Below are positions 4,073 through 35,041 of a stretch of 64,000 nucleotides of DNA, one piece after another. A program made the translations under genes and the position numbers. The stretch comes from Carcharhinus amblyrhynchos (Eukaryota): assembly GCA_965287045.1 (NCBI GenBank), contig OZ336877.1, positions 80,786,001 to 80,850,000 on the forward strand, read 5' to 3'. Under the pieces are notes generated by a model. That model saw only the letters and a program-made list of their open reading frames with translations, was not told the origin of the DNA and did no database searches. The first letter of the stretch is position 1, and each line of letters begins with the position of its first letter.

Positions 4073-4110
4073 TTCATCTGACGAAGAGGGGAACCTCGAA
4101 AGCTTGTGAG
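4073..4110 (+). ncRNA. Minimal type I hammerhead ribozyme, intact core
   Basis: uucau-CUGACGA-A-GAGG(ggaa)CCUC-GAAA-GC-UU-gugag: core at 4078-4084, GAAA at 4098-4101, palindromic AGCU stem III, stem I uucau/gugag. AATAAA follows at 4121. Confidence 0.75.
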
Positions 4111-4321
4111 TTTCCTATCAAATAAATCGGTTGGACTTAAACCTGGTGTTGTCAGACTTCTTACTGTGCTCCCCATGAACCCTGACTCCCTCGTTAGTCA
4201 AAAATCTGTCCAAATCAATCTTGAATATATTCAGTGACCCAGCCTCCACTGCTTTCTGGGGAAGAGTCCAAATATTTATGACGCTCTGCCCTCCCCATAT
4301 CTGTCTTAAGTAAGACACTGT

Positions 4322-4780
4322 GGGAATGATCTTACCTTCTCCATCCATCAGTCAATAGGCAGGGTGAGCTGGTAAGATTGCAAGAGATTTGAAAAATCGG
4401 CTTCGCACCTGAATTCTCACCTCTCATGACCTTCCCAGATATCTGGCGGGACTATGCGCAAAGCTGGTTGTAATATAAATCAATGATAATATTGATATAA
4501 ATATTATGAGTGAGCCCGGGATGCAATCATCGTAGCAGCCTCGTCAGGGAAGGTCCTCACTAATGTGGGTCACGTATGGTCCTCATCAATGGGAACCTGT
4601 TATGATGGTCTTGTTGGTAGGGCCGGAGACCTTTGAGGCTTCTCTGGGAGGTCAGGGTCAGGAGCCCATTGGGCAGTGCCAGACTGGCACCCTGACAAAA
4701 CGGCTCACAGAATGGCATTCTCCATTAGCCTTAAGAAGAATCTTACTAGCCTCGGGTGGGCAAGGCAGTAAAATTCTGGC
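4322..4780. mobile_element. Short non-autonomous Harbinger-like derivative
   Basis: Shares gagctggtaa.at..caagaga..tgaaaaatc and cagtgcca..ctggcac motifs with 6002-7083 and 46045-47031; ends in gtaaaattctggc. Confidence 0.5.
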
Positions 4781-4898
4781 GTACATTTCAAATCATAAAC
4801 CTTCCATTGGAATAGAAAGGAGGGAGAACGTTACACTAAAATAAACTGCAACATAAAGTAGCAACTTTAAGAATAAACAGTTGACCTGGTGAGTGGGA

Positions 4899-5248
4899 GG
4901 GACGGTACAGTAGCGCAGTGGTTAGCACTGCTGCTTCACTGCTCCAGGGTCCTGGTATCGATTCCCAGCTCAGGTCACTGTCTGTGTGGAGTTTACACAT
5001 TCTCCTTGTGTCTGCGTGGGTTTCCTCCAGGTACTCCAGTTTCCTCCCACTGTCCAAAGATGTGCGGGCTAGGTTGATTGGTCATGCTATGAAATTGCCC
5101 CTCAGTATCCAGGGATGTGTAGGTTAGAGGGATTAGTGGGTATAATATGTAGGGATATGGGGTTAGGGCCTGGGTGGGATTGTGTTCGGTGCAGACTCGA
5201 TGGCCCGAAGGGCCTCTTTCTGCACTGTAGGGTTCTATGATTCTATGA
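4899..5248 (+). mobile_element. tRNA-derived SINE (HE1/V-SINE-like) with CR1-type tail
   Basis: Pol III A box tagcgcagtgg, B-box-like ggtatcgattccc, central tctgcgtgggtttcctcc.gg domain, (tctatga)n tail. Confidence 0.85.
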
Positions 5249-5364
5249 CTGTTTTGCACTGAGGCCATACATTTATGAAATACTTTAAAAAAAGAGAAGA
5301 AAGTTGGGGGGGGGGGGGTGTTAAGATGGAGGAGAAAGGTTAAAATCTAAAGTTGCCAAACACA

Positions 5365-5556
5365 CCATTGAGCCTAACTAGAAGATGAGATGCTGCTCCT
5401 CCAGCTTGCACTGGTCTTTACTAGAGCACTGCAGCAGCACTGACATATGTTCAGGAGAGCAAGGTGCTGAGTTAAAATGGCACGCAACAGGAAGATTGGG
5501 GTCATGCTTGCAGACTGACCAAAGGTGTTCCGCAAAGCAGTTATCCAGTCTTTGCC
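5365..5556 (-). mobile_element. Penelope-like family 2 GIY-YIG fragment
   Basis: Minus frame reads QRLDNCFAEHLWSVCKHDPNLPVACHFNS..QCKLEEQHLIF*LG, matching the PLE endonuclease C-terminal motif. Confidence 0.75.
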
Positions 5557-6001
5557 AGACATGATATGGAATTGCTTTCAGGCCCCGAACCAGCCTCCAA
5601 TCACAGACTGTGATTGAGACTGGGCCAATCCTTTAGTTGGCATGGAGACAGGTTCCCCGTCCAACTCAGGGCAACAGGCAGGCTCTGAAAGCTGGAAGAC
5701 CGATCAGAGGCCTTTGGGCGTCAGAGAAGCAGCAATTTGCAGTAAAGGAGGAGTTAGTAGGAGGGCATATCAACAGGAATGTGTTTGCCAACCAACGTAT
5801 TTAAAAATGGAAGAAGAGCATTACTATGAGGGTGGGGGGAATAGGGTGTTGAAGGAGGAATCTGTCTTTGGGTGGCCTATGGCCACACCCACATGTTGAC
5901 GTGCAAAAAGGGCCTGCAAGCTTGTCTGGAGATCTGGGTCCCCAGCCTGTTATTGGGCAGCCATCTCCAGGAAGTTTTACTGTCCCAATCATAGAGTCAA
6001 A

Positions 6002-7083
6002 GGCTAGATTTTTGCCAGCTTGCCCTGCCCATTGATGGGGGAGCCAGCTGGTAAAATCAAGTGAGAGCTGAGAAATCAGGATTACACCTGATTTCTTGAC
6101 TCTTGCGAACTTTATGGTAATTTATTTTAATGTTATTTTAATGTTAATTCTCATGGCATTAGTGAGCCCAGTGCTCAATTTCTTCAGTTCTCTCCGGCGA
6201 GGAAAACAATTGTTACCTATGAACAGTGACGGTCATTTTGGCTTTGTCGGTAGAACTGGAGGCCATTTAGGCCCCCCCAGGGAAGCCAAGGGGGATGTCT
6301 TTCCTTAAGCAGTGCCAACCTGGCAGTGCCAGCGTGGCACCTCAGTAATGTCCTTTGGGACCTATTGGGTGGGGCCTATGGGGCAGGGCTTATGGGGGGG
6401 GTGGGACCTATGGGGGCTGGGCCAGGCTGAGACAGGCTGACCTGGAGGGGAAGGGGAGCCACTGTGCACTCTGCCTGTGATCAGGTCAGGGAGGGAGAGA
6501 GGCCCGCTGCTGCTCTGCATCGCAATTGGATTGGGGGCCACTCTGCACGCAATCGTTCAGATGAGGGGGGACAATTAGTTTGGCTGGTGGAGTGGTTGGA
6601 ATCAGGGGCTACATGTCTGTGCGGTGTGGGGCTTGTGATCGGTCATGGCAATTGCAGGGGAGGGTAAGTTTGTGAAGTTGCCTGCAATTGCAGGGGCCTG
6701 AAAGATCTCTCTCTCTCTGTCTGTCAGACCTCTGCTGTTGGAATTGCACATGAGCATGACCAGAGTTCTGCACATGTGCAATAGCTCCCTCTGCAGGCTA
6801 GCTGGCAATTTAAGCACAGTAAAAAGTCTGACAACACCAGGTTTTAGTCCAACCTATTAAATAGGTTGGACTAAAACCTGGTGTTGTCAGACTTTTTACT
6901 GTGTTTACGCCAGTCCAACGCCAGCATACCCACATCATGACAATTTAAGCACAGCCCATACATGCGGCAGCTAGAAATGGGTTAGCCCATATTTTCAATG
7001 CCTAAATCTGTAGAATTGGGCATGAAAACTTGCCCAAAAAATGGATCAGGAATTTTCCCATTTTCACACTAACTAGACACCAA
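6002..7083. mobile_element. GC-rich ~1 kb non-autonomous Harbinger-like element (family M1); right end lost
   Basis: Collinear with 46045-47031; its right end matches the reverse complement of the left end of the Harbinger at 29498. Confidence 0.65.
6815..6940. mobile_element. Mini fold-back Penelope terminal-repeat insertion with a perfect palindrome
   Basis: 44-bp arms at 6815-6858 and 6860-6903 with a 1-nt spacer; TSD caatttaagcacag at 6806-6819 and 6941-6954. Confidence 0.85.
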
Positions 7084-7928
7084 GGGCCTTATTTTACCAT
7101 TTCGATTTTCAGTGCTGGGCTGAAACTGGGAATGTTTCAGATCTAAATTTTAGACCCATTCTCAGGTGCCCCCACACAGAACCTGCCTGAAAAAAATCAG
7201 CAATTCCAAATCATGCTGCAGAAGCCTTGGGTGGGGCTTAACGGCCCAAAATCCTGCAGCCCTGATTCGCGCCTCCAACAGTGCGTGCGCAGCAAAAAAA
7301 ATGATAGAATGCGGCTCCCCTGCCACATCGCTCCCGAGTCGGATAATGCCTCTCCCTGGCCCTCACATACATTGCTCCAGGCCCACCTTACCCCCCACTC
7401 CCCTCCACGTAGACCAATCATAGGCCCCTGCCGCCTTCCCTCTCGCTGATCTCAGGCAGTGTGGCAGTGGACCCCCACCTCCCCCTCACTGATCACAGGC
7501 AGAGTGGCAGTGGACTCCCCCTTCTTGCCCACCACCGATCTCAAGCAGAGAGCCGTTGGACCCACCTCCTCCCCTCCCACCGATCTAAAGCAAAGAGCCG
7601 TCAGAATCTTGGCATTTACCTCCTCACTAACCGGAGCGCCAGAAATGGACTTTTGTGGAGCATGTCTGCTTTGCACTGATTCTGGATAGGGGGACAAGGA
7701 GGTAAAGGGGGAAATGGCACTAACATTGGGCATGCAGCACATTAAGTCAATTTAAATGCATGCAAATGGCTGTCGCACCCATTTCAGGTGTGGTCCTGAT
7801 TGCAGTCATTTTTGGGCCTTGGTAAAGGGGGAACTGGTGTGGAACCGGATGTGGATCGTGCTGCTCAAATCACTTTACTAAGTTTTCGTGCCCGAAGTCA
7901 GATGCAACTTGATGGTAAAATCGAGCCC
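7084..7928 (+). mobile_element. MITE-like DNA transposon (family M2) with terminal inverted repeats
   Basis: TIRs gggccttattttaccat / atggtaaaatcgagccc; an inverted sibling lies at 29601-30230. Confidence 0.75.
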
Positions 7929-10452
7929 ATAGTGTTGTACAACACAAAAAAGGCCCTTCGACCCATCAAGTGTACAGTGACAATAGATCGGAATCAGACA
8001 ACCAGATTGGAAAACTGTAGGCCCTCAGTCAGTCTCCTTTAATTGTTTCTTTGAATGCTCTTACTGAATCCAATTGGCTGCCTGTCGGCCTTGGTATTTT
8101 AGGCCCTGTCTGGCTCCATTTGTGATCTTGTTGGGGTCACAGAATTATGTCCAGGATGTCATGGGCCTGGAGTGGACAGGACAACAAGAGTATCTCTTTA
8201 CCAATGAAATTTAAGAATTGGGAAATAAAGAAAAGACTGAGAAGAAGAATGAACTAAAGAGACTGAATTCAATGTTAAATTAGGTACAGAAAGAGAAATA
8301 GAGAAGGGGTGCATAATTGGATTTCATGACAGAAAGGGAAAAATTGAGTTCTAAAACTTCCTGACAAAATTTCAAAACTTGAAGATATGAGATGCCAAAC
8401 TTTGAGTATGTTTGGTGCTGGGTAAGTTTATTGACTGTACATCAACACTCATCATGTCATTAAAAGGGTACTTATGTTTGTAATGGCAAAAATTTGCTTT
8501 CTAGTTTATTATGCAATCAATGGGTGAAGTCCCTTAAAACACGTGAAGCTAAGGGCAAGATGAAGCCAATGGCAAAATGTTGCAACTTGCCAGTAACTTG
8601 TGGACAGCAGCATTTGACTGTGTATGTATCTGCTCCTTGCCTGAAGTTGCTGTACCATTTACACATAAATAATGACGAGCGTCATTAGTTTCTCCATTAA
8701 ATTGATAGCAAATTCAGGCTGGAATGTTACACTGCATTAGAGAATGCTTTACTGAAGTGGGAGCTGAAGCATGATATTAAGTCAGTGCAGAGAAAGCTTT
8801 CTTTGATGCTGAGACTGGGTATCTGAAGTGTAAAAATACAATCGCTCAATGTTAGCAATCCTCAACGTCAAAAGCAATTAAAAAAAGGTGAAGTGAGAAA
8901 ATAAATCATGCATGGTGGGATCGATCCAACTTGGCCACAGGTATAGGCCATTTGAGGGTTGAGGAAACAGGATCTGGTGGGGGATGTACGATGTGCCCCC
9001 TCCTGTTGATTCCTATCTTTAGGATTTTATAAATGACAAATTTCATAGGCACAGGGTTTTGGCGCAAACACAATCCTGTTGTATAGGAAAAAAACCCCAA
9101 ATGCCATAATACAAGGGTTCTGTTCTAGTGCAAATTACAATGCACAACGCTTGACTGGTTAGCCCGAGTTACTTCCCATTCCCATTAACACATAAAAACA
9201 ATGACTTGTTAATAAAAGCCTCCATTGAAAAACCAGAGGACAAAACCTTATTCCAATCCAAACCCCCTCAGAATTTAAAGTAAATTATCCTGAAACCTCA
9301 GCCCAATATCCCTCAGACCTGGCTGATAACTTACCAGCCCCTACACAGTTTATCCTTGCGGTGAATGTTGTAGGTTCATGAATCATGTTGACCATTTCTG
9401 ACACTCCTTGGTGACCACAGTCCCAAACCTTCAACAATGTCAACATGATATGGGCTGAAAACACAATTCCCACACAGCCAGCCTTGTCCAGTGTTGAAAG
9501 TAGGCATGAGTCAAGCCCTAGCCCTTCTTCTGACTGCAGTGCCAGAGCCTGCGATCTTGATCTTTTGTTGCGATTCTTATTAAAAATATCAAACACATTT
9601 CCTGAAGACATTTTGCTGGATGGTCAATGCTTAGTATTTTTCATCTCTTTAGATTCATACCTGCTTTGGTCCAGACAAACCCATTCATCGCTGATGTTGT
9701 TCCTGTGACTAAAACTATGGACCCCAAGACCACAAGCAGTCCTAAGAGGAATTGTCATGGATGCTGGAGACAATTAAATCCTGGGTTTTATCGATGGGGA
9801 AGGAACAAGTACTCAAGAGGGGAGGGTGTGAGGGAAAGCAGGTTTTGGAGGTCAGGTCAGAAGGTATAAAGTGAGGTGGGCATGATATTGGGGGATACCG
9901 CTGATGCAAACAGGGCAATCCCTAATGTAAGCCTCTCCCTTCTTTTCACCAACTGCGGTGAGAAAGCATCCTTTCCACTCCTACTCACTGCCCAGTGCCC
10001 AGTGTATTATGGCAGTGGAGGTGGATTGAGGGCCCTAAGTGGGCAATAATTGGCTATTTTATGGCCTCATTAGGCCAATGGGCAGGCATACTAGTGGGTG
10101 CCTTGCCTACCTCAGTATGAGGGGTGGAGAGAAGGTGGTGGGCCATCCAATTGAAACATGCCTGGTGGGAGCTGTGAAGTCCAGCTCCATTTTAGAAAAT
10201 ACAGGCAAAAGGCAAAAATTAACAATGTCAACTACTGTACGTTTCTGCATATGAAATTGTTGGCTTAATAATGTACGAAAATAATTGTCCTCACACTCTC
10301 ATGGCTGATGCTGAATTATTTAACATACCTATTAACAAAGAAAAATATTTTTAAAACAAAATTTTCTTTTTTTTAAAGTACCTACTATGTTAGGATCCCT
10401 AAATCCACCATTGCTGCCATGAATTCATATTTGTTGTTAATCTGTTGCACAG

Positions 10453-10502
10453 AGAACATGTTTCAGAACTCATTGAAAATCAACAGTACATCAAGGACAT
10501 TG
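10453..10502 (+). CDS. Candidate 50-nt internal exon of an unidentified host gene (EHVSELIENQQYIKDI)
   Basis: Acceptor ttgttgttaatctgttgcacag, donor G|gtaaag, open protein-like frame in repeat-free DNA; no homology recognised. Confidence 0.3.
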
Positions 10503-11294
10503 GTAAAGTATGCCATGTCATGGAAATGGAATTAGAGCTTTTAAAATGAAAACAATGTCACTGCTGCATCTTGCTTTACTTACATTATATTTTCATGCTG
10601 TTACATTTTTTGTGTGATGAATTTAATCTTGTTGAAAAGTAATTATGGATAAGTCTTGTCAATGATTTGCTGAGTGCAATTGAATAAGATGAGTCCTTGC
10701 TGCACCATACAGATATGCTTTTAAAGTACCAAACGATATTCTTTGGAATTAGCTCAGGCAGACATATTCCTGGTTTTTCATTTATGTTACAGAGGGAACA
10801 CAAAATCTGGATCCATAATTTCCTCCCTTTCTCAAAATGTGTAAATAAATCGATGGGAGTAAAAAATCATGCTAACAGGTTCTAGAATCTGAAGGTTGCT
10901 ACCACTCCCAAAATTGATGAATATTCACTCACAAAAACTAACTAAAAGGTTAACATTTTTCATGTTAATCCTTCATTAAATCTATTTTGATGAAACTTTT
11001 GCAGTAGCACAACTAGTAGATGTGATAACCTTGCTTTGAATCAAACCTGCATTAGTGAACTTTATAAATGAGATGATTTCCACCCTATTGAGAATGATTG
11101 TATAAGGCTTCATCATACATGTGTTCATGAACTCCAAAATTCTTGAGTTGGGAGGAGGGCGTCAATTGAAAAATACACATTTTGCAGGCCAGAAATTTCA
11201 GAAACAGCCAAAACATGCTGGATTTCTATGGAAAAACTTAAATTCTATTGGGTTCCAGGGGACACTCACTCTGCCAATGGCAGCTATTTCAAAT

Positions 11295-11460
11295 TAGTAA
11301 GAAGTCTCACAACACCAGGTTAAAGTCCAATAGGTTTATTTAGTTGCAAACGCCACTAGCTTTCGGAGCGCTGCTCCTTTGTCAGGCTGCTCCTGGTGTT
11401 GTGGTGATGTGAGACTTCTTACTGTGTTTACCCCAGTCCAATGTCAGCATCCCTGCATCA
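11295..11460. mobile_element. Mini fold-back Penelope terminal-repeat insertion with an inactivated hammerhead on the minus strand
   Basis: 14-bp TSD cagctatttcaaat at 11281-11294 and 11461-11474; minus strand ~11353-11385 reads cugacAa-a-ggag cagcg cucc-gaaagcua (G8>A). Confidence 0.85.
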
Positions 11461-12639
11461 CAGCTATTTCAAATGACAGAGTTATAATGGGGTGATTTCA
11501 TTGGTCCTAAAATATGAGTTCTGCCTTCCAATTGGTCTTGTTATTGTATAAGCCCAAAGAGTGTGGCCCAGTCTAAAAAGGTGCAGTTTGACAGCACCTG
11601 TTCATCAAGATGGAAGTATGAGCTTGAAGGAATAGTGCTTACCTTAGGTTGCATGTGGAGACTCTTGGCCAAATCTTTGGACTCACTGCAGGCTCTGCCT
11701 ACTTTGCATATTATGATAACCTTGGAAACCGTTGTTTTTTCAAGTGAATTTCTGACCCAGAATTTAAGACCTGCATAATTAACCTTTTACATAATCTCCC
11801 GTTGCTGCAGCACCCATACAGCAGAAGAGGCATTTTGGAAGAGTGTTCCAGGAACTCTGTCTAAGAATAATGTGCTTTAGTCGGGAAGACTTAGAGGAGT
11901 TCAGTTCATTGTTACAGATGAACTTCAATCAAGATCCATTAGATAGACAGCTCGGATTGTGCAAAGAAAACAACCATTGCTTTTAACTTCTATGTGACAA
12001 TCTAATTCCAAAAAGACACAGGGGACATTTGCCAGTCCAGTCAATTTTCTGTGAACTCCTCTATTAGGAAAGAACACAATTCCTTCTATGTGAAGGCAAC
12101 TCAAATCATTCAAATAATGTATTCAGACATATGATTGAAGAGTCATTAAATTTCTTGGAATTGCCAGATTTTCCTGGGCTTTTAAGGCTATAGCTACTGC
12201 CCATGTGGCCTCTGTCCCAAATGAAACCCCATTTTTGCATGAGCTGAAAAGGTTTGTTTCCTTAATTGTACAGCTCAATGCTAGCTGCAACCTGAGAGTT
12301 GTCTTGATCCCAGAATCGGGGCGGGTGAGGCCTGCAGAATGGAATTCTTCATTGGCTTCGTGTGGGATTTTACAAGCCTTGCCTGAGCTAGGTCGTAAAA
12401 TCCCAGCCATACTGTGTCAGTCTAGTATTTTACCTTTATTTTAACAATAGGGATAAAGGACAGATGGCTGCTTGGTGACAAGAAATGCCCACTTTTATGG
12501 CTCTTCTGAACCAGTGCTACAGGGCACTGTTACAGTGTAGCAGATGTGAACACAGCAATAGGAATTGTGCGTGTTATTAGCAAGCTGACAGGCAGGACTG
12601 ATGTTTGGATGGGTCCAGAGCTTTTTTAAAATACACTTT

Positions 12640-13305
12640 CATGGGATGCAGGATGCTGGCCTTCATCGCGAGGGGGATTAAATATAAAAATAGGGAGGTC
12701 TTGCTGCAGCTGTATAGGGCATTGGTGAGGCCGCAGCTGGAGTACTGTGTGCAGTTTTGGGCGCCGTACTTACGCAAGGATATTTTAGCCTTGGAGGGAG
12801 TGCAGAGGAGGTTTACTAGGCTGATGCCGGAGTTGAGGGGGTTGAGCTATGAGGAGAGGCTGAATAGATTAGGCTTGTACTCGTTAGAGTTTAGAAGAAT
12901 GAGGGGAGATCTCATTGAGACGTATAAGATGATGAATGGGATGGATAGGATAGAGGTGGAGAGACTCTTCCCGCTCAGAAAGGATAGCAGGACTAGGGGG
13001 CACAGCCTCAAGATAAAGGGGGGGCGGTTTAGAACAGAGTTGAGGAGGAACTTCTTCACTCAAAGGGTGGTGAATCTCTGGAATTCTCTGCCCGTTGAAG
13101 TGGTGGAGGCTACCTCGCTAAATATTTTTAAGACGCGGGTTGATGGGTTTTTGATAAGAGAGGGGATTAAGGGTTATGGGGAGAGGGCGGGAATGTGGAA
13201 CTGAGCCACGACAGATCAGCCATGATCTTATTGAATGGCGGGGCAGGCTCGAAGGGCTAGTTGGCCTACTCCTGCTCCTATTTCTTATGTTCTTATTATG
13301 TTCTT
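12640..13305 (+). mobile_element. Young 5'-truncated CR1 LINE: uninterrupted ORF2 C-terminus and 3'UTR
   Basis: ORF 12605-13204 (LYRALVRPQLEYCVQFW..LEGVQRRFT..RNFFTQRVVNLWNSLP); (ttcttatg)n tail; CpGs retained. Confidence 0.95.
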
Positions 13306-13329
13306 AAACAGGCCATATCAGAACTGAAA

Positions 13330-13740: not shown

Positions 13741-13939
13741 TAATTAGAAATAGTTAAATTTTATTGGTAAGCTTGAGAATCTGGTCCAGTGAACTGTTAA
13801 CATTCACTACATTCTCCCTCTGAACCTAATGTGTTAGGATTTAGCAGAAACACAGATTAATGTGGAAGTCCTGAAGTTGCTGTATCTCATTAGTTGATTC
13901 TTTTCAGGCTTTGCTGAGGATCGACCCTCCTTCTCAAGA

Positions 13940-15224: not shown

Positions 15225-18050
15225 AATCATGGAATCATAGAAAAACTACAGCACAAACAGGCCATTCGGCCCACAAGTTGTGCCAATCATCATATCTCTA
15301 CCTACTAGGCTTACCTATAACCCGCAATCCTATTAAGTCCCATGTACTCATCCAGAAGTCTGTTAAAATATCCTATCGAATTTGCCTCCACCATCACCGA
15401 CGGCAGCCAATTCCACTCACCCACCACCCTCTGAGTGAAAAACTTATCCCTGACATCTCCTCTGTACCTACTCCCCAGCACCTTAAACCTGTGTCCTCTT
15501 GTGGCAGCCATTTCAGCCCTGGGAAAAGCCTCTGAGAATCCACCTGATCAATACCTCTCAACATCTTATACACCTCTATCAGGTTCCCTCTCATCCTTCG
15601 TCTCTCCAAGGAGAAAAGACCAAGCTCTCTCAACCTATCCTCATAAGGCATGCCACCCAATCGAGGTAACATCCTTGTAAATCTCCTTTGCACCCTTTCA
15701 ATGGCTTCCACATCCTTCCTGTAATGAGGTGACCAGAACTGAGCACAGTACTCCAAGTGGGGTCTGACCAGGGTCTTATACAGCTGCAGCATTATCTCCC
15801 GACTCCTAAACTCAATTTCTCGATTGATGAGGGCCAGTACGCCATATGCCTTCTTAACCACATCCTCTACCTGTGAAGCCGATTTGAGGGTCCTATGAAC
15901 CCGGACCCCAAGACCCTTCTGATCTTCCACACTGCTAAGAGTCTTACCCTTAATATTATATTCCTTCATCCCATTGCACCTGCCGAAATGTACCACTACA
16001 CATTTATCCAGGTTGAAGTCCATCTGCCACTTCTCCGCCCAGTCTTGCATCCTATCTATGTCACGCTGCAACTTCTGACATCCCTCCAAACTATCCACAA
16101 CACTTCCAATCTTCATGTCATTGGCAAACTTACCAATCCATCCCTCCACTTCCTCATCCAGGTCATTTATAAAAATCACAAAAGCACGGGTCCTAGAACA
16201 GATCCCTGGGGCATTCCACTGGTTACTGACCACCATGCAGAAAAAGACCCATCTACAACCACTCTCTGCCTTCTGCGGACAAGCCAGTTCTGGATCCACA
16301 AAGCAACATCCCCTTTGATCCCATGTCCCCTCACTCTCCCAATAAGCCTTGCATGGGGGATCTTATCAAATGCCTTGCTGAAGTCCATATAAACCACATC
16401 CACCACTCTTCCTTTGTCAATGTGTTTAGTTACATTTTCAAAAAACTCAACCAGGCTCATAAGGCACGATTTGCCTTTAACAAAGCCGTGCTGACTACTC
16501 TTGATCATACTATACTTCTCTAAATGTTCATAAATCCTGCCTCTTAGGATCTTTTCCATCAACTTACCAACCACTGAGGTTAGACTCACCGGTCAGTAAT
16601 TTCCTGGGCCATCCCTATTCCCTTTCTTGAATATAGGAACCACATCCGCAATCCTCCAATCCTTCGGAACCTCTCCCCTCTCCATCAATGATGCAAAGAT
16701 CATTGCCAGAGGCTCTGCAATCTCTTCCCTCACCTCCCACAGTAACCTGGGGTACATCCCATCCGGTCCCAGTGATTTATCGATCTTGATGCTATTCAAA
16801 AGCTCCAACACATCCTCTTTCTTAATGTCCACATACTCAAGCTTTTCAGTCTGCTGCAAGCCTGCACTACAACCTCCAAGATCTTTTTCCACCGTGAATA
16901 CCGAAGTAAAGTATTCGTTAAGCACTTCTGCTATTTCTACCGGTTCTATACAAACTTTCCCACCTTTACATTTTATAGGTTCTATTCCTTCACATCTTAT
17001 CCATCTGCTCTTCACATATTTGTAGAACGTCTTAGGGTTTTCCTTAATCTTACCTGCCAAGGCCTTCTCATGACCCCTCTGGCTCTCCTAATTTCCTTAA
17101 CTTCCTTCCTACAAGCCGAATACTCCTCTAGATTCCTAAGATTACCTAGCTCCCTGAATCTTTTGTATGCTTTTCTTCTCTTTTTGACAAGATTTGTTAC
17201 AACTTTCATGCACCACAGTTCCTGTAAGCTACCATAACCTCCCTGTCTCATCGGAACGTTGTCATGCAGATCTCCAGACAAACATTCTTTGAAAATCTGC
17301 CACCTTACTTTGGTACATTTCCCTGAGAATACCTCCTTCCAATTTACGTCTCTAATTTCCTGCCTGATGGCTTCATATTTCCCCTTACTCCAGATAAACA
17401 CTTTCCTAGCTTGCCTGATCCTATCTCTTTCCAATGCTAGTGTAAAGGAGATAGAGTTATGATCACTGTCCCCAAGATGGTCTCCCACTGAGAGATCTGA
17501 CACCTGTCCAGGTTCATTACCCAATACCAGATTGAGCACAGCCTCTCCTCTTGTAGGCTTATCCACATACTGTGTCAGGAAACACTCCTGAACACACCTA
17601 ACAAACTCCTCCCCATCCAAACCCCTTACCCTAGGGATATTCCAGTCGATGTTCGGGAAATTAAAGTCTCCCATCATGACAACTCTGTTATTTTTACATC
17701 TCTCCAGGATCTGTTTCCCTATCTGCTCCTCAACAACCCTGTTACTATTAGGCGGCCTATAGAAAATGCCCAGTAAAGTTATTGACCCCTTCCTGTTCCG
17801 AACTTCCACTCACAGAGACTCCGTAGATAATCCCTTCACGGCATCCACCTTCTTTACAGCCGTGACACTAGCCCTGATCAATGGTGCCACTCCCCCACCT
17901 CTTTTGCCTCCCTCCCTGTCCCTCCCGAAACATCTGAAACCCGGCACTTGAAGTACCCAGTCCTGTTCCTGAGACATCCAAGTCTCTGTAATGGTCACCA
18001 CATCACATTCCCAAGCAGCGATCCACGCTCTAAGCTCATCCACTTTGTTC
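15225..18050 (-). mobile_element. CR1 LINE with nearly complete, frameshifted ORF2 (APE endonuclease and RT)
   Basis: ORF pieces ITETW, GIFYRPPNS, MGDFNFPNIDW, SDHN, DFSKAFD, PQGSVLGP, FANDMK and LVRPHLEYC; 3' tail near 15225-15240. Confidence 0.95.
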
Positions 18051-18165
18051 TCAAAGTTTCCTGCTAGTTTTTGAGATACTTACTTGAATGAATCTCCAAC
18101 ATTGAGCATTGCAGAGTGTCACAGACTCATTCACACTGGAAAGTAGGGTGCAGGGCCTATTCCCG

Positions 18166-18551
18166 ATGTGGGTATGCCGGCGTTGGACTGGCGTAAACAC
18201 AGTAAAAAGTCTGACAACACCAGGTTTTAGTCCAACCTATTTATTTGATAATATTCTCACAAGCTTTCGAGGGGTTACCCTCTTCGTCAGGTGAATGGAG
18301 AGTTCTGGCCTCAGACAGAGCATATAAAGCACAGACAGTTTAGAGATTACTGATTAAAATGCGAATCCTTACACCTAACCTGCTGTTCAAGACCTGAAGT
18401 GGCTGACAATGTGAGTGGTAGGAGCACTGATCACAGTTTAAAGAGATGTGTATTGTCTCCAGACAGTACAGTAAGTGAGGTTTTGCAAACCCAGGCAAGT
18501 CACGGGGGTTACAAATAGTGCGACATAATAGTTACAGATAGTGCGACAGAT
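18166..18551 (-). mobile_element. Solo Penelope family-1 terminal repeat
   Basis: Reverse complement of 3395-3590 plus 4046-4168; 14-bp TSD agggcctattcccg at 18152-18165 and 18552-18565. Confidence 0.9.
18256..18295 (-). ncRNA. Minimal hammerhead ribozyme, intact core
   Basis: Minus strand reads uucac-CUGACGA-A-GAGGG(uaac)CCCUC-GAAA-GC-UU-gugag. Confidence 0.8.
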
Positions 18552-18945
18552 AGGGCCTATTCCCGCCAGAGAGGTCGCCAACATAGTGCTGAGCAGGCCA
18601 CTGTGCAAGTATCAATCTGTCAGTTTGTAAATTGGCGCCTGTGCACAGCAACACCTCCCACTCCCCACCACCAACGGCTGGGCTCCAGATTGTTGGCCTG
18701 TGATTGCTAACCTTCCCCAGAACCCCCGATCACTAGTCTTCCCAACCACCCCCTCCACCCCCCGATTGGCTTACAGAACATCCCCCCCATCCCCCACCCA
18801 ATCCACGCGCTCCTGGGTCAGCTCTGATCTCCCCAATCTCTGAGTGAGCCCCGGCCACCCATCTCTCAGTGGCCAACTCTGACCTCATGCTCCCCCCCAC
18901 CGATGACCAGGCCCAACTATACCCCTCCACCCCATGGCCAGCCCT

Positions 18946-19997
18946 GAACAAAGAACAAAGCACAAAGAAAATTACAGCAACGGAACAGGCCCTTTGGCCC
19001 TCCAAGCCTGCATCGACCATTCTGTCTGACTTAACTAAAACCCCCTACCCTTCCAGGGACCATATCCCTCTATTATCATCTCATTCATGTACTTGTCAAG
19101 ATGCCCCTTAATAGTCACTATCTTATTCGCTTCCATTACTTCCCTCAGCAACGAGTTCCAGGCACCCAATATTCTCTGTGTAAAAAAAAATCTGCCCCAT
19201 AAATCTCTTTTAAACCTTGCTTCTCGCACCTTAAACTTATGCCCCCTAGTAATTGACTCTTCCACCCTGGGAAAAAGCTTCTGACTATCCATTCTGTCCA
19301 TACCTCTCATAATCTTGTAGACTTCTATCAGGTCTTCCCTCAACCTCTGTTGCTTCAGTGAGAACAAAACAAGTTTCTCCAACCTCTCCTCATAGCTAAT
19401 ACCCACCATACCAGGCAACATCCTGGTAAACATTTTCTGTACCCCCTCCAAAGCCTCCACATCCTTCTGGTAGTGTGGCGACCAGAATTGAACACTATAT
19501 TCCAAGTGTGGCCTAACTAACGTTTGATAAATCTGCAACATGACTTGCCAATTTTTAAACTCAATACCCCGGCCGATGAAGGCAAGCATGCTGCATGCCT
19601 TCTTGACTATTTTCTCCACCTGCATTTTCACTTTCAATGACCTGGGTACCTGTATACCCAGATCTCTTTGCCTATCAATACTCTAAAGGGTATTTCTGCC
19701 ATATACCGTATATTTCCTTTCTGTATGAGACCTTCCAAAATGCATTACCTCACATTTGTCCGGATTAAACTCTATCTGCCATCTTTCCGCCCAAGTCTCC
19801 AACTGATCTATATCCTGCTGTAGCCTCTGATGCTCCGCAAATCCACCAACCTTTGTGTCGTCCGCAAACTTACTAATCAATCCAGTTACATTTTCCTCCA
19901 AGTCATTTATATATTATGAACAGCAAAGGTCCCAGCACTGATCTTTGAGGAAAGCCACTTGTCACAGCCCTCCATTCAGAAATGCACTCTTCCACTG
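18946..19997 (-). mobile_element. CR1 LINE 3' fragment with (gaacaaa)n tail
   Basis: ORFs 19035-19637 and 19683-19901 (SKFADDTK, LVRPHLEY). Confidence 0.9.
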
Positions 19998-27699: not shown

Positions 27700-29495
27700 G
27701 AGTAGTTCATATAATTGATGGAAAGCTTTTAGATAAACTTAAGGAAATAAATGCTGACAAATCCTCAGGACCTGATGGCCTCACATTTCTAAAAGATGGA
27801 ACTGCAGAGATAATGGTTGCACTGGTTATTGTTTTGCAAATTCCCAAAGATTCTTGAATTGTCCCAGCAGATTGAAGGTTGGGAAATTTAACACTGCTAT
27901 TCAAGGAAGAAAGCTATTAAAGGAAGTTTTAACAATGCCCTTAGAAAATCATCTTATGATCAGACAGAATCAACACAAATTTTGCAAAAGGAAACTTGTG
28001 GACACCATATTAGGATTTCTTTCTGGACAAGAAGCAGGGAATAGGGATAAATGGTGCATTTTCAAGTTAGCAGACTATGATTAGTACAGTGCTGTGAGGG
28101 CTCAATGCCTGAGTCTCAGCTATTTACAATCTCTAATGAATTAGATGAAGAAACTGAGCAGAAAGCATCCAAGTTTATTGATAATACAGAGCTAGGGTGG
28201 AATGTAAGCTGTGAGGAGGACACAAAAAAGGCTGCATGAAGATATAGACAAGTTGGGGAGGCAAGAAGTTGGCAAATGGGTAAATGTGAGCTTGTTCAGT
28301 TTGATCTTAAGAATAGAAAAGTAAAAGTATTTTGAATGTATGCTGAACAGGAACTTCAGTTCCTCTTCAGCATACATTCTTACCTTTGAGCACATGACAT
28401 CTCCACTGAGAGCTAAACCTACCCTGTCTGCTCTCAGAACACAAGATCTTATAATTAGGAGCAACATTCAGCCCCTTGAGTCTGTTCCTCCAACCGAAAG
28501 ATCATGGCTGTGGTTCCAATTCCATTTTCCTGTCTGCCCCCCACCCCCGTTATCCTTGATTTCGTTGTTGAACAAGAATCTATCTCGCTCAGCCTCCTCT
28601 GCTCTCTGAGGAAAAGAATTCTACAGCCTAACAAGCCTCTGAGATCAAAATTCTCTGCATCTCAGTCTCACTAGGAGATTGCTAATTTTTAAACTGCATT
28701 TACGAATGCTAATGCCTCCACAAGGAGAAACATCTATTAGCCCCATCTGGACATTATATGTTTCAGTAAGATTACATCTTATTCTTCTAAACTCCAATGA
28801 GTATAGGCCTAACCTGCTCAACCTTTCCTCGTTACAGTGCAGGGGAGACAATTCAGCCATTACTTCTTCACATTCTCTCTACCCAAGCAAATCATTTAGT
28901 GCCATTCTCCCATCAACTGCCTGTAACTCTGTATATTTTAAATGATGGTCTAATTGCCTTTTGAATGTTTCAATTGAAGTTGCGTTTGCCACACTCTTAA
29001 AACATATATTCCTGACCTTAACCGCTCACTACATGAAAAAGATTTTCCTCATGTTACTTTTGTTTCATATATCAATTATTTTAAATCTGTGCCCTCTTGT
29101 CTTTGATCCTTAAATGAGTGGGAACAGTTTCTCTTTGATTTTAAATACGTCTATCAATCCAGACATCAATCAACTGAACCTTCTCTGAACTGTTCCTAAT
29201 GTAAATGATACCTTTCCTTAAGAAAGGAGACAAAACTGTAAAAAGTACTCCCAGATGTGGTCCAGTTAAGGCCCAGTACAGATGCAGCATCATTTCGCTA
29301 ATTCCCTTGTAGTAAGTGCCAATATTCTGTTTGCCTTCCTAAACAATTGAATCCCAAATGTTATGCAAATACAGTATGTACCAGGATAGCCTGGTACCTC
29401 AATACCAAAGAGATCTGCTTTTGGTTGCTCAACATTCAAACATACTGCTTTTCTATTCTTCCCGACAAATTGGATAAGTTCGCATTGACCCACAT
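27700..29495. mobile_element. Cluster of old CR1 fragments (plus strand 27700-28330; minus strand 28440-28830 and ~28860-29495)
   Basis: Degenerate KSxGPDG and RLGLYSLEFRR motifs and CR1 3'UTR sequence. Confidence 0.7.
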
Positions 29496-29600
29496 TATGG
29501 GTGGAATTTTACGAGATTTCTTTGTGTCCAGCGGGCATGTAACTGGGAGAGTTGCCAATCTATTTATCGGGTGAGTTTTCACTCCAAATTTATGCACTTT

Positions 29601-30230
29601 GGGCTGGTTTTACCATCAAGTTGTACCTGTTTTCAGGCATGAAAAATTGGTAAAGTCAGGTGTGAGGCAAGTAGTATGATCTGCACTTGCCTCCATGCTG
29701 ATTCCTATTTACTAAGGCCTGAAAATGGCTGCAATTGGGACTGTGCCAAAACAGGCGTGATGCCAGAATTAGCGCAAAACAGACATTCTCCACAAAAATC
29801 CAATTAAGGCATTTCAGTTAGTGAGGCAGTAAGTGGCTAGTATCTGACGGCTCTCTGCCTGAGAGCAATAGAAGGAGAGGGACCCGTGATCTGGCGGGAT
29901 AGAAGGGTCAGTAATGTTGGGGCGGGGGTGGGGAAATGTCTGTGGAGGTCAGGGGGAGGTGTTATCTTGCCCAGGAGGAATGTGGCAGGGGAGCCGTATT
30001 CTAGCATTTATTTTCCGCACATGAACAGTTGGAGCCACTGATGGGAACTGCAGGATTTTGGGCCGTTGAGCCCCACCCACAGGCTTCTACAGAGCGATTT
30101 GGAATTGCTGATATTTTTTCAGGTAGAGTGCATTTGGGGGCACCTGAGAATATGTCTAAAAGTCGGATCTGAAACACTCCCAGTTTCAAGTCTGCCCAGC
30201 ACTTATAATCAAAATGGTAAAATAGGGTCC
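29601..30230 (-). mobile_element. MITE family M2, inverted copy of 7084-7928
   Basis: TIRs gggctggttttaccat / atggtaaaatagggtcc; flanks ttt and tga are each one mismatch from TTA, and the sibling site at ~46925 reads cttagtc on its minus strand. Confidence 0.75.
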
Positions 30231-31980
30231 TGAGTCTTTGAAATTTATAGGCTATACTGCTTCCAGCTGCAAGAGGCAGTGGGTGGGGTCTAATTTGCCA
30301 GACAGCCAGCAACTCAGATTGGAGCCACAAACTGCTCGTGTGCAGAAAAATGGAAAAAAACAGCTCTCCTGACAGAGCCCTCACGGGCCAGCTAGAGCCT
30401 TCATTTCCCCCCCCCCACTCCACCACCACCAAGACATTGGAGACCCCCAATTACTGACCCTCTTACCCCTCTACCTCACCCTCAATGCCAGGATCTCCTT
30501 GCACAAGGCCCCCTTATGGCCCTAATGGCTGACTGACATGATCCTCCCCCCCCCCCCCCCCCCCCACCAATTCATCACAAGTGGTTCAAATCCACCCCTC
30601 CCAATCAGCAAACCTTCAAGTGCTGTCTTGGCTCCACATTCATGGTAACAAGTCAAACTGCTTTAAACTCACTGGAATCTCAAATGGGTAGGTAACTCTA
30701 CCAAACTGCCTGCAGCTAATCTGCCCTAACAAGGGAGAGCCTCATCAAAATCTCAAGGATGGACAGACAAGCAGCCACTGCAGGAAGAAATGGTCTCCAA
30801 GAAGACAGCTCCCTGATCTTCAGGTGCTAAATTGGCCACGTTGCTCAAGGCAGGGAAGGCAAGGTGGGATATCCTCTTCCCCCAGCAGAATGCCGTTCCA
30901 GAGGAAAGAAATGGAAACACAGACTGGGAGGTGTTGGGAACATGCATTAGTGCCAGGACACTGGCCAGGAGAACCGGGAAGCAGTGCTGCAAAAACTGAT
31001 CTAATCCGGACAGCAAGGGCGAGTGTTTTACTTCATCTAGCTGCTTCCCCCTAAATGACCTCCAGGTCCCCCCCACCCCAGCACCCTGCATGCTTTCAGC
31101 CTTTGACCCCCAAACACCTCCCTTCTCCCATCAAGAGTATTACAATCCCTGACCTCCTGAGGGCAATCCCCTGAAACCCTGCAGGACTCGTGCCATCAGA
31201 TTTGACATGGCTTCTTCTGTCCCCACAGGAGAAGAATATCCACAATCGCTGGGAGTGGGTGAAGACAGGGGGTGGTGTGTTTGAGATCCAGGTCCTTAGT
31301 GCCTTTGAGGAGCAGGCAGTGGCACTTGCGGGAGAGGAGGGGATGCAGACAATTAGCAACAGCATGGTTGGGTTGGAATATAGAAGTGAGCACCTGCCAA
31401 CCCTCCACTTATTGGAGAAATGTGTCCTGTGTTGCAGGAAGGGACCCCAAAAGCCTGGGCCATCTGGCATCATGGCTCCTGCCCATCCTGCCTCTGACAG
31501 CCCGGAAGACTCCTCGGAGGAAGCGGATGAAGGGACTTCCGAGGCTGGCACCAATCTTTTTTTGTCAGCTTCCATCTTGCAACTTGCCATCCCAGAGATT
31601 CTCATATTGGTAGGTCAAGTTAGTGGTGAAGCTTCTGTGTCACTCTCTGGTGTGCATGACACATCTGCTGATGTACAACAGGTGAAGGATGGAATGGTTG
31701 AGGCCTCTGGCATGTGGGGGCTGCTGGAAGCGAGGACTCAGTTGGCCCCAGGCTACATGCTGGACCTCTGAGATCATTTCTCCCTCAGCTGCTAGCAATG
31801 CAGCAACAGAGCCAGGGAATGCAGGAAAGGCTGTCGGCCACACTGGACCAACCGTGAGGCTGCTGGGAGAGTCCCAAAGCTTTCAAATGGACCAGCTATT
31901 GCTGGTTTTGAGCGGTTCCCAGGCCAACACTGCAAGTGTAGCATCTGCGGTGGAAAGCCTGAGGCAGGAGATGCTTCAGG

Positions 31981-33747
31981 TTTATGTGGTAGTAAACACC
32001 ATTAGCTTTTGGGGTTTCCCCCTTCATCAGGTGCGTGGGAGTTCTGATCACAAACAGAGCATATAAAGGCACACACTTAGTTTACAGAATACTGATTCGA
32101 ATGTGAGTCTTTACAGCTAATCAAGTCTTAAAAATGCAGACAATGTGAGTGGAGATAGCATTGAGCATAAATTTAAGAGATGTGTATTGTCTCCAGACAG
32201 GGCAGTTAGTGAGATGTTGCAACTCATGGGGGTTACAGATAATGTGACATGAACCCAAGATCCCAGTTGAGGCCATCCTCGTGTGTGGAACTTGGCTATT
32301 AGTTTCTGCTCAGTGACTCTGTGCTGTTGTATATCGTGAAGGCCACCTTGGAGAACGTTTACCCAAAGATCAGAGGCTGAATGCTTGTGACTTTGGAGTT
32401 GAGGAGGAACTTCTTCACTCAAAGGGTGGTGAATCTCTGGAATTCTCTGCCCGTTGAAGTGGTGGAGGCTACCTCGCTAAATATATTTAAGTCATGGGTA
32501 GATAGGTTTTTGACAGACAAGGGAATTAAGGGTTATGGGGAGAGAGCAGGAAAGTGGAACTGATCCACTTCAGATCAGCCATGATCTTATTGAAAGGTGG
32601 GGCAGGCTCAAAGGGCTAGATGGCCTACTCCTGCTCCTATTTCTTATGTTCTTATGACTACAGTGTTTGCCAACAGGAAGGGAACAATCTTGTCTGAGTG
32701 TCAAGCAGTGTTCATTCATCCATTGTTGTAGTGTCTGTATGGTGTCCCCAATGTACCGTGCCTTGGGACATCCTTTCCTGCAGCGTATCAGGTTAGACAA
32801 CTTTGGCCAACTTGCAAGAGTATGTGCCATGTACCAGGTGGATGGTATTCTCACATGAGATGATGGCATCCGTGTCAATGATCCGGCACGTCTAGCAGAG
32901 GTTGCTGTGGCAGGGTTGTGTGGTGTTGTGGTCACAGTTTTCCTGAAGGCTGGGTAGTTTGCTGTGGACAATGGTCTGTTTTGAGGTTGTATGGTTGTTT
33001 GAAGGCAAGAAGCTCTTATGAGGGCATCTTTCAGCATCTGGAGGTGTCTGTTGCAATTGTCCTCATCTAAGCAGATCCTGTGTATATGGAGGGCTTGTCC
33101 ATAAGGGATGGCATCTTTTAACATGTTTAGTGTGAAAGCTGCAGAAGTGGAGTATCATGAGTTACCCAAGGGCTTGCAGTACAGTGAGGTGCTGAGGTGA
33201 TCGTCCTTAATGGAGATGCGTGTGTCCAAGAATGCAACCGATTCCGGAGAATAGTCCATGGTGAGTCTGATGGTGGGATGGAACTTGTTGATGTTGTCAT
33301 AAAAGTTGATTCCATGATTGTTCACCATGAGTCCAAAGGAAGAAAATGTCATCGATGTTTCTAGTGTATAGCATTGGTTGAAGGTCCTGTGTGGTGAAGA
33401 AGTCTTGTTCGAGCCTGTGCATGAAGATGTTGGCAGATTGAGATGCGAATTTGGGTCCCATGGCTGTTCTGTGTGTCTGGATGAAGAACTGGTTGTTGAA
33501 GGTGAAGACATTGCGTCCGGGATGAAGCGGATGTGTTGTAAAATTCCATCTGGAAACTGGCAGTTGTTGGCGTTGAGTACTGAGGCAGTTGCAGCAATGT
33601 CATCGTCATGGGGGATGTTGGTGTAGAGTGCTGAGACATCCATTGTGACGAGGAGTCCCCCTAGTTCAACTGCTCCATGTGTGCTGAGTTTCCGTAGGAA
33701 GTCCATAGTGTTGCGACAAAAGTTGGGGGTTCTTTTTTGTATTGACT
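31981..33747 (-). mobile_element. Penelope family-1 element, 5'-truncated (RT, GIY-YIG and terminal repeat)
   Basis: LVTMDVSALYTNIPH, FHPTIRLTMDYS..FLD, AIPYGQAL and YIGDT motifs; ttcagg is duplicated at 31975-31980 and 33748-33753, and the host frame rejoins as EMLQ|DALEW. Hammerhead at ~31998-32034 has G12>A. Confidence 0.9.
32394..32654 (+). mobile_element. Young CR1 3' end inserted in the Penelope element
   Basis: Highly similar to 13037-13295; (ttcttatg)n tail. Confidence 0.9.
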
Positions 33748-33839
33748 TTCAGGATGCCCTCGAGTGGCTGAGTCACAGCAGGCCACAGCTGAGGGCCTGA
33801 ACAGGCTTTTTGAGATTCTATGGCCCATGGATGAGAGGT

Positions 33840-34070
33840 TTGAGAGCTTGCAGGAGACCCAGTGGGACAATGCTGAGACATAGTAAGCTATGACTGCACC
33901 CCTGAGAATGTGGCTGACTCTCAGAGTCATAGCTGAGGGGCTACAGAGTTGGCAGGAGACACAGAGGGACAGTGCTAAGACACAGCAGGCTATAGCAGCA
34001 TCCCTTCAGAATGTGGCCCAGTCATAGAGTCATGGTTGAGGGGTTGCAGAGCATAGCCCAGTCTCAGGAC
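33840..34070 (+). repeat. Degenerate ~102-nt coding tandem repeat (coiled-coil region of the Myb ORF)
   Basis: caggagac.cag.gggaca.tgct.agaca starts at 33851 and 33953. Confidence 0.6.
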
Positions 34071-34398
34071 ACTTGCTGTGGCCATTGACAGGTGACCCTT
34101 GACTTAGCCATCGCAGAGGGCTCAAACACCATGGCAAGAATGCAAAAGGTCCTTTCAGAATTGGCAGGACCAGGTGATGCTGGAGCTTTTGAAGTTCACT
34201 TCAGAAGCACCAGTGTCCCATGGATTGAGCCAGGGGTCCAAAAGAACTCCGAGGGAGGAGCAAGGCCTCGCCCCTGCTTGGGCCTTTGGCATAGGAATCT
34301 ATGGCTGAGATTAAAGCTTCTGACTCCCCTCCCCCTTCCTGACACCAGGGCAGGGGGATGAAGAGGGTATCATGGATATGTTCCTGACACCTGGAAAC

Positions 34399-35041
34399 GC
34401 AGTAAGAAGTCTCAACACCCAAGTTAAAGTCCAATAGGTTTATGTGGTAGCAAACGGCACTAGCTTTTGGAGCGCTGCTCCTTCGTCAGGTGAATGGGAG
34501 ATCTGTTCACAAACAGGCATATAAAGACACAAACTCAATTTATAGAATAATGATTGAAATGCAAGTCTTTACAGCTAATGTGAGTGGAGAGCGTTAAGCA
34601 CGGGTTAAAGACACACAGCACAGAGTTGCTGAGCAGAGACTGATAGCTGAGTTCCCCACACATGAGGATAGCCTCAACTGGGATCTTGGGTTCGTGTCAC
34701 ACTATCTGTAACCCCCATGACTTGCCTGGACTTGCAAAATCTCACTAACTGTCCTGTCTGGAGACAATACACATCTCTTTAACCTGTGCTTAATGCTCTC
34801 TCATTGTTTGCACTTTTTAAAGACTTTATTAGCTATAAGAACTCGCATTTCAATCCTTATTCTGTAAATTGAGTTTGTCTTTTATCTGCCTGTTTGTGAA
34901 CAGATCTCGTACTCACCTGACGAAGGAGGAGCACTCCGAAAGCTAGTGGCGTTTGCTAACAAAGAAATCTGTTGAACTTTAACCTGGTGTTGTGAGACTT
35001 CTTACTGTGTTTACCCCAGTCCAACGCATCTCCACATGACT
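34399..35041. mobile_element. Fold-back Penelope insertion (two terminal repeats in opposite orientation)
   Basis: Minus arm 34399-~34610, plus arm ~34612-35041; TSD acctggaaac at 34389-34398 and 35042-35051; minus-strand hammerhead at ~34458-34495 has G12>A. Confidence 0.85.
34912..34950 (+). ncRNA. Minimal hammerhead ribozyme, intact core
   Basis: cucac-CUGACGA-A-GGAG(gagca)CUCC-GAAA-GC-UA-gugg. Confidence 0.75.

What the first reader, a model, noticed from the sequence alone, without database searches (positions are those of the whole stretch)
4073..34950. Minimal hammerhead ribozymes in Penelope terminal repeats, with compensatory stem II variation
Seen: seven copies of CUGANGA-A-stemII-GAAAGCUH. 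Three are intact (4073-4110 +, 18256-18295 -, 34912-34950 +). Four are damaged (~3047-3075 -, ~11353-11385 -, ~31998-32034 -, ~34458-34495 -). Stem II differs among subfamilies (GAGG/CCUC, GAGGG/CCCUC, GGAG/CUCC, GGGG/CCCC) yet always pairs. Stem I pairs in the intact copies, and stem III is reduced to the palindrome AGCU. Established: Penelope-like elements carry minimal hammerheads that are thought to work as dimers through such palindromes. Inference: this lineage has seeded many potentially self-cleaving sites into introns on both strands, and solo copies might cleave only when another copy is supplied in trans.
Basis: partly seen in the sequence, partly recalled or inferred. Interest (0 to 1): 0.72.

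Follow-up and report, generated by a model that had tools for sequence, protein, structure and literature searches.

The report
Penelope-end hammerheads, abundant but decaying
The seven motifs are real copies of a small, predicted self-cutting RNA already known from the ends of Penelope-type jumping genes; this genome holds about 64,500 copies with an intact core, but their key letters decay as fast as the rest of the element, so they likely matter to the jumping gene and not to host RNAs.

Summary
Observation confirmed; it is a new member of a known kind. The seven motifs are minimal type I hammerheads in the end repeat (pLTR) of a Neptune-type Penelope-like element, but they come from five insertions: two 'damaged' copies are inverted arms of the insertions that carry two 'intact' ones. 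The core pattern occurs 64,507 times genome-wide (control 44). Stem II covaries between subfamilies; the inner stem I is invariant, not covarying. Against a host role: catalysis-killing CpG changes (G8A 725, G12A 616) are as common as their partner changes (611, 505), with the same ratio as elsewhere in the element; inverted arms would trap two of three intact copies in double-stranded RNA; no same-strand partner is near; the intron setting is unverified. 5' ends of copies pile up in the 22 nt before the core (43 of 152), not at the cut site (3 of 164), so copied RNAs were mostly uncut. Stem-loop II varies far more than its flanks among young lineages. One insertion is absent from a close relative's run, so the family moved recently. 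This scan has noted the same system many times, in this and other shark-like genomes.

The parts
4072..4111 (+). Intact minimal type I hammerhead; predicted cut between 4105 and 4106 (after CUU); stem II GAGG/CCUC
18255..18296 (-). Intact minimal hammerhead; predicted cut between 18261 and 18260 (after CUU); stem II GAGGG/CCCUC
34911..34951 (+). Intact minimal hammerhead of an older subfamily; predicted cut between 34945 and 34946 (after CUA); stem II GGAG/CUCC
2954..3075 (-). Inverted 5'-truncated arm (tail plus half hammerhead, G12A) of the same insertion as 4073+
3083..4168 (+). Direct arm: end of GIY-YIG coding region, 3' UTR, hammerhead, short terminus; interrupted by an unrelated LINE-end repeat at about 3588-4036; 9-bp direct repeat at 2950 and 4170 flanks the whole unit
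6811..6941 (.). Fold-back stub of the same element with both arms truncated downstream of the hammerhead; 14-bp flanking direct repeat
11296..11459 (.). Fold-back stub; minus arm starts at CUGA and has G8A; 14-bp target duplication at 11281 and 11461
18165..18551 (-). Single-arm young insertion (3' UTR, hammerhead, long tail ending at the next ATG); 14-bp target duplication at 18152 and 18552; empty site seen in run X1
31978..33763 (-). Broken Penelope-like element: RT and GIY-YIG fragments, 3' UTR, hammerhead with G12A at 31998-32034; interrupted by a LINE-end repeat at about 32392-32661
34395..34579 (-). Inverted arm (hammerhead with G12A) of the same insertion as 34912+
34611..35043 (+). 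Direct arm with ORF end, 3' UTR, intact hammerhead and long tail; 10-bp direct repeat at 34389 and 35042 flanks the unit

Best explanation
The motifs are minimal hammerhead ribozyme sequences inside the terminal repeat of a very abundant Neptune-type Penelope-like retrotransposon; the ribozyme fold is likely kept by selection on the few elements that still multiply, while the scattered copies are passengers that decay without selection and are likely inactive. Shown: position 213 nt after the ORF stop and, in a tandem copy, 124 nt before the next ATG; two fixed 3' ends about 60 and 98 nt past the cut site; inverted truncated arms; target duplications; neutral CpG decay. Inferred: reverse transcription starts at those two internal sites, copies RNA that has not been cut at the hammerhead, and often stops just 5' of the core, which likely marks the 5' end region of the template RNA. 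Inferred from published work on related elements: cutting needs a second copy in the same tandem transcript or the element's own protein, conditions a solo or fold-back copy read through by a host transcript would rarely meet.
For: Element identity: long frames carry DKG, YIDD, a CX4CX2C linker and a GIY-YIG-type C-terminus (RVT_1 E 5.5e-10, GIY-YIG weak E 0.03); linker is diagnostic of Neptune/Nematis versus Poseidon. Selection in founders: among 49 young copies 0 of 15 core columns but 10 of 14 stem-loop II columns are polymorphic at 10% or more, and stem II pairs 2-4 switch G-C/A-U in 20, 21 and 10 of 70 variants. No selection in dispersed copies: GAGG-stem subfamilies genome-wide, intact 10,344; C7U 611; G8A 725; C11.1U 505; G12A 616; G>A/C>T ratio 1.20 in the core versus 246/210 = 1.17 at 79 CpG sites outside it, Fisher p 0.84. 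Uncut templates: 5' ends 43 of 152 in -20..+1 before CUGA versus 3 of 164 in the 5 nt at the cut site. Trapping: both plus-strand intact copies pair fully with their inverted arm in predicted folds; 0 of 117 sampled cores have a same-strand intact core within 1.2 kb. Literature: monomers inactive, dimers weak (PMC4209133); the anole element's hammerhead cuts only with protein, is dispensable for insertion in vitro, and no RNA-seq reads start at its cut site (PMC11167929).
Against: No cleavage assay and no RNA data were available, so inactivity of solo copies is inferred. The CpG test covers only GAGG-stem subfamilies and cannot see selection on a small minority of loci; the outside-core control comes from 170 local alignments, not the whole genome. 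The truncation sample is drawn mostly from the start of contig C1, part of it selected for an intact core, and arms of one insertion are not independent (one arm per locus: about 24 versus 7, p about 0.001). A minority of copies do start at or next to the cut site (22 of 97 informative rows, counted by eye). Covariation counts are sequences, not independent events, and the tool warns that related sequences can beat its shuffles.
Confidence: 0.82

Rival explanations
1. Solo copies cut host pre-mRNAs when a second copy is supplied in trans or from far away in the same transcript.
For: 64,507 intact cores give many potential partners; the AGCU palindrome and the inner stem I are shared across subfamilies, so heterodimers are possible on paper; dimer cleavage is described for this class (review PMC6765202).
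Against: Neutral decay of catalytic positions; predicted double-hammerhead energies -17.7, -22.3, -17.3 kcal/mol versus -18.8, -23.2, -17.2 for two monomer folds; antisense arms upstream of 65 of 117 cores; the two plus-strand intact copies are 31 kb apart; host gene not shown.
Confidence: 0.07
2. The hammerhead cuts the element RNA in vivo and the cut product is a regular template, leaving copies that begin at the cut site (R2-like 5' processing, or unit-length circles).
For: In the filtered genome-wide list 22 of 97 informative rows start at +1, -1 or -2 (11, 2, 9) against 2-6 per position at most neighbouring offsets (by eye); a recurrent fold-back joint has one arm starting at +1.
Against: 10 of those 22 rows are one fold-back joint with 2-4 nt microhomology that the filter passes preferentially, and 2 more use stem I complementarity; the remaining 10 equal the background of about 3.5 per position. 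A palindrome 5 nt downstream gives a larger class (25 rows). The whole filtered class is 620 matches against 24,304 with GAAAGCUW intact. Hazard at the cut site equals its neighbours.
Confidence: 0.2
3. Paired stem II variants arise by template-switch repair of a hairpin during copying, not by selection on a ribozyme.
For: Two-sided changes are all G-C/A-U transitions; junctions in this family show frequent template jumps; stem-loop II changes much faster than flanks.
Against: Unpaired catalytic positions, the extra A after CUGANGA (201 of 204) and G10.1-C11.1 (187 of 204) stay fixed across subfamilies whose flanks differ by about 20%; hairpin repair does not explain that.
Confidence: 0.1

Closest known systems
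Minimal hammerheads (min-HHR) in pLTRs of metazoan Penelope-like elements (Cervera and De la Pena 2014, PMC4209133; read parts 1-2 of 4)
   Same: Type I topology, no real helix III, palindromic 15.2-16.2, extra nucleotide after position 9, G10.1-C11.1, short helix I, mostly solo copies, close pairs on opposite strands, high within-genome variability with compensatory changes; reported for Neptune elements of fishes.
   Different: Number: 64,507 exact-core matches here (22 per Mb) against about 4,000 in coelacanth and 9,000 in Xenopus tropicalis, with a different descriptor. Helix II here is 3-6 bp. Cartilaginous fishes are not named in the parts read.
PAc, Poseidon element of Anolis carolinensis (Frangieh et al. 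2024, PMC11167929; read parts 1-2 of 4)
   Same: Hammerhead near the pLTR-ORF junction; two fixed 3' ends defining a tail downstream of the cut site; uncut RNA as main template.
   Different: Here the element has the CX4CX2C linker (Neptune type) and the hammerhead lies wholly before the ATG, whereas the PAc ORF starts in stem II; protein-assisted cleavage untested here.
Canonical EN+ PLE insertions with inverted 5'-truncated pLTR and 30-40 bp tail (Craig et al. 2021, bioRxiv 10.1101/2021.04.23.441226; passages)
   Same: Partial tandems, inverted arm at the 5' side, tail at one end (about 38 nt here).
   Different: Clear 9-14 bp target duplications at five window units; pile-up of 5' ends just before the hammerhead is not in the passages read.
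Non-LTR retrozymes (Cervera and De la Pena 2020, PMC7229834, passages; Li et al. 2026, bioRxiv 10.64898/2026.07.22.740005, part 1 of 5 and passages)
   Same: Type I hammerheads derived from PLE ends; Li et al. list one chondrichthyan genome as positive.
   Different: Retrozymes are head-to-tail arrays with a hammerhead in each unit; the window copies are solo or head-to-head, 0 of 117 sampled cores have a same-strand neighbour within 1.2 kb.

Membership tests
min-HHR of metazoan PLEs | Core CUGANGA ... GAAA ... UH in type I order | tested here: met
min-HHR of metazoan PLEs | Extra nucleotide between 9 and 10.1 and G10.1-C11.1 pair | tested here: met
   A in 201 of 204; G-C in 187 of 204, G-U 10 (the pattern itself demands one base there)
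min-HHR of metazoan PLEs | Helix III reduced to a palindrome at 15.1-16.1 | tested here: met
   AGCU in all three intact copies; 64,507 genome matches were selected on it
min-HHR of metazoan PLEs | Compensatory variation in helix II | tested here: met
   5 of 5 stem II pairs show two-sided change; 0 of 500 shuffles reach the score; slid controls lower
min-HHR of metazoan PLEs | Location in the pLTR of a PLE | tested here: met
   213 nt after the stop and 124 nt before the ATG in tandem copy L027
min-HHR of metazoan PLEs | Self-cleavage as dimer or with protein help | not testable with these tools
   folding only; no RNA run listed
EN+ Penelope-like element | Single ORF with RT (DKG, YIDD) and C-terminal GIY-YIG with CCHH | tested here: met
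   on L013, L014, L017, L027; window fragments match them; GIY-YIG Pfam score is below cut-off
EN+ Penelope-like element | 5' truncation, inverted arm, optional 30-40 bp tail | tested here: met
Neptune clade | CX2-5CxxC linker between RT and EN (absent in Penelope/Poseidon) | tested here: met
   CHSNLCKTC; definition
Neptune clade | RT phylogeny placing it with Neptune rather than Nematis | not tested
Non-LTR retrozyme | Head-to-tail tandem units each with a hammerhead | tested here: not met
Canonical type I hammerhead (Rfam) | Match to an Rfam hammerhead model | tested here: not met
   0 hammerhead families among 13 matches at E<=10

The most novel reading that the evidence does not exclude
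The hammerhead sits at the very 5' end of the element's RNA (start within 20 nt before the core, a TATA-like TTTATAT about 30 nt further up), where cutting would remove the capped leader and act as a brake or switch rather than as the step that makes the template; and stem-loop II is under diversifying selection among active lineages (identical in only a quarter of pairs whose flanks are 98% alike), for example as a self-recognition tag or to escape a host factor. The tens of thousands of dated copies make both ideas testable from genome sequence alone.
Probability: 0.22. Interest if true: 0.62.

Novelty: new member of a known kind. Interest (0 to 1): 0.3.

Why it matters
What Penelope hammerheads do in vivo is open. 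This genome offers a very dense, recently active family in which each copy records where copying started and stopped. The tests run here point away from a host-RNA role and away from cut RNA as the main template, and put numbers on the unexplained hypervariability of stem-loop II. The window itself is an ordinary sample of that family.

Tried and rejected
Rfam scan: no hammerhead model matched. Pfam on five window PLE fragments: no hits, too broken. Search for host exons: 281 non-repeat frames, none at cut-off; exons outside Pfam domains, frames under 45 aa and the flanks were not examined, so the intron question is open. Sequencing runs: no RNA holder listed. Lunse et al. 2016 (dimer cleavage) is not held; known only through the review PMC6765202 (passages). 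An open frame running from the hammerhead's UGA into the ORF in L027 was dropped: another subfamily has a stop in that frame. A single-base transcription-start peak: not seen, 5' ends spread over 22 positions with an edge at -20. Microhomology as cause of that zone: 4-mer propensity 1.05 versus 0.88 next door, not enough, though 35 of 43 events are fold-back joints. Upstream 34458- and downstream 31998- as one tandem: rejected, 34458- is the inverted arm of 34912+. Tree of 111 copies on flanks: weakly resolved (21 of 101 branches starred), so independent compensatory events were not counted. Presence or absence in relatives was examined for the 18165-18551 insertion only. Paper searches listed no paper devoted to shark PLE hammerheads; subscription papers and bioRxiv supplements, including the species table of Li et al. 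2026, could not be seen.
Full report
OBSERVATION. All seven motifs are present as described. Three meet a strict pattern; 0 such matches arose in 100 Markov simulations of the window. Rfam listed 13 weak matches and no hammerhead. Folding puts the stem I plus stem II topology within about 1 kcal/mol of the minimum for all three intact copies. The predicted cuts follow CUU (4105, 18261) and CUA (34945). The four damaged copies carry a 5' truncation or CpG-type G8A or G12A changes.

CONTEXT. The motifs lie in a repeat whose upstream part encodes RT and GIY-YIG fragments. A search of the own genome with the window's RT piece gave 8,891 candidates, 150 scored; 20 long ones were fetched. Their frames carry DKG, YIDD, a CX4CX2C linker and a CCHH GIY-YIG end. 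By the definitions in Craig et al. (passages) that is a Neptune-type element; no RT tree was made. In the natural tandem L027 the core starts 213 nt after the stop and 124 nt before the next ATG. Copies end at two places, about 60 and 98 nt past the cut site, the second at the ATG, like the tail of the anole element. The seven motifs belong to five insertions; four of them and a hammerhead-less stub at 6811-6941 have flanking direct repeats of 9-14 bp, none was clear for 31978-33763. A 306-nt contig of run X1 joins 18057-18151 to 18552-18762 with 3 other letters, an empty site for the 18256 insertion, so the family moved recently. That the host is a shark-like fish rests on recalled SINE and LINE types and on earlier notes, not on a call.

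ABUNDANCE. The core pattern occurs 32,226 + 32,281 times in 2.92 Gb, reversed control 20 + 24: 22 per Mb, 1.4 expected per window, 3 seen. Published counts with another descriptor are about 4,000 (coelacanth) and 9,000 (Xenopus tropicalis); a section title in PMC7229834 gives up to 120,000 canonical motifs in axolotl.

COVARIATION. Of 204 distinct local motifs there were 72 stem-loop II variants, 53 seen once; 70 were aligned after dropping 2 chance matches. Stem II pairs 2, 3 and 4 show two-sided G-C/A-U changes in 20, 21 and 10 rows; the inner three pairs of stem I show none; 0 of 500 shuffles reach the covariation score and slid controls are lower, with the tool's caveat on related sequences. 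Among 49 young copies (one per locus, from 66) 10 of 14 stem-loop II columns are polymorphic at 10% or more, against 14 of 194 upstream columns and 0 of 15 core columns. In 490 pairs with flanks at least 97% alike, stem-loop II is identical in 24.5%; the window's 18256 copy has flanks identical to three other copies but another loop. So the founders kept the core and the pairing while changing the hairpin fast, the 'extreme variability' that Cervera and De la Pena left unexplained.

ARE THE SCATTERED COPIES SELECTED? Two CpG sites pair a tolerated or mild change with a lethal one (established hammerhead chemistry; G8 test). For GAGG-stem subfamilies: intact 10,344, C7U 611, G8A 725, C11.1U 505, G12A 616. 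The lethal changes are 1.2 times as frequent, and the same tilt holds at 79 CpG sites elsewhere in the element (246 versus 210; Fisher p 0.84; 170 local alignments). No trace of selection for, or against, catalysis in the bulk of copies; a few co-opted loci would be invisible.

COULD SOLO COPIES CUT? Predicted double-hammerhead energies are no better than two monomers. In folds of the whole insertions, 4073+ and 34912+ pair end to end with their inverted arms; 65 of 117 sampled cores have such an arm within 1.2 kb upstream (fuzzy match, both arms counted) and 0 of 117 a same-strand intact neighbour. Published monomers did not cleave, dimers weakly; the anole motif cleaved only with protein. 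No host exon was found in the window.

WHERE COPIES BEGIN. Of 266 tail-anchored copies, 195 were at least 90% like a young reference and 180 remained after removing duplicates. 5' ends: 16 of 180 between tail and cut, 3 of 164 at the cut (-3..+1), 9 of 161 in the core, 43 of 152 in the 22 nt before CUGA (1.29% per nt), 10 of 109 in the next 25 nt (0.37%). The excess holds in the tail-selected subset alone (19 of 75) and with one arm per locus (about 24 versus 7, p about 0.001). Most copies therefore come from RNA that still held the whole hammerhead. A TATA-like TTTATAT lies about 30 nt before stem I (sequence; motif reading recalled), but the ends are spread, so an RNA start there is an inference. 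Of the 100 listed, 3 were deletions; by eye 22 of 97 start at +1, -1 or -2, but 10 are one fold-back joint with 2-4 nt microhomology favoured by the filter, 2 use stem I complementarity, and the other 10 match the background; a downstream palindrome yields 25 rows. A script on the first 30 loci gave 5 at -1 or -2, scoring one arm per palindromic locus. The footprint is at most small and is confounded here.

VERDICT. A correct catch of a known class. Best reading: ribozyme fold maintained in the multiplying elements, dispersed copies neutral and likely silent (0.82). The scan has noted this system before: 259 findings in at least 25 genomes by words, 22 in this genome. New here are the controlled neutrality test, the measured hypervariability of stem-loop II and a cautious negative on the cut-site footprint. 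Interest 0.3.

Noticed in passing
window 39995-40261: Near-perfect inverted repeat (79-nt arms, 99%, 109 nt apart); gives spurious plant miRNA matches in Rfam; looks like a young MITE or fold-back insertion.
   Followed up: no
window 15394-17809 (-), 12602-13204 (+), 19035-19682 (-), 51513-51941 (-): Broken CR1-like LINE pieces with APE endonuclease (PF14529, E 5.9e-11) and RT; their 3' ends interrupt two of the Penelope insertions (3588-4036, 32392-32661).
   Followed up: partly
window 4900-5089, 48554-48817, 50075-50264: tRNA-like SINE copies (recalled as HE1-type; not tested).
   Followed up: no
L151 1109- and 1886+; several pairs in the lists: Both arms of one inverted insertion often share the same rare change (for example G8A), which suggests one template or conversion between arms.
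   Followed up: no
G000:C1:19855577-19855630 and about 13 similar loci: Recurrent perfect hairpin stubs centred on an AT palindrome 5-9 nt past the cut site: independent insertions with the same junction.
   Followed up: partly
G000:C1 first 3.5 Mb: Many matches occur twice with the same flanks (for example 553136 and 1247664), pointing to segmental duplication or an assembly duplicate.
   Followed up: no
L111, L145, L050: Short templated repeats at inversion joints just 5' of the hammerhead, as from repeated slippage at the end of the template.
   Followed up: no
L022 7055-9061: 34-nt-based GC-rich tandem array with open frames over 700 codons, next to a Penelope copy.
   Followed up: no
window 55466-55654 and 56515-56703: 189-nt direct repeat, 94% alike, 1,049 nt apart, not part of the Penelope family.
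   Followed up: no
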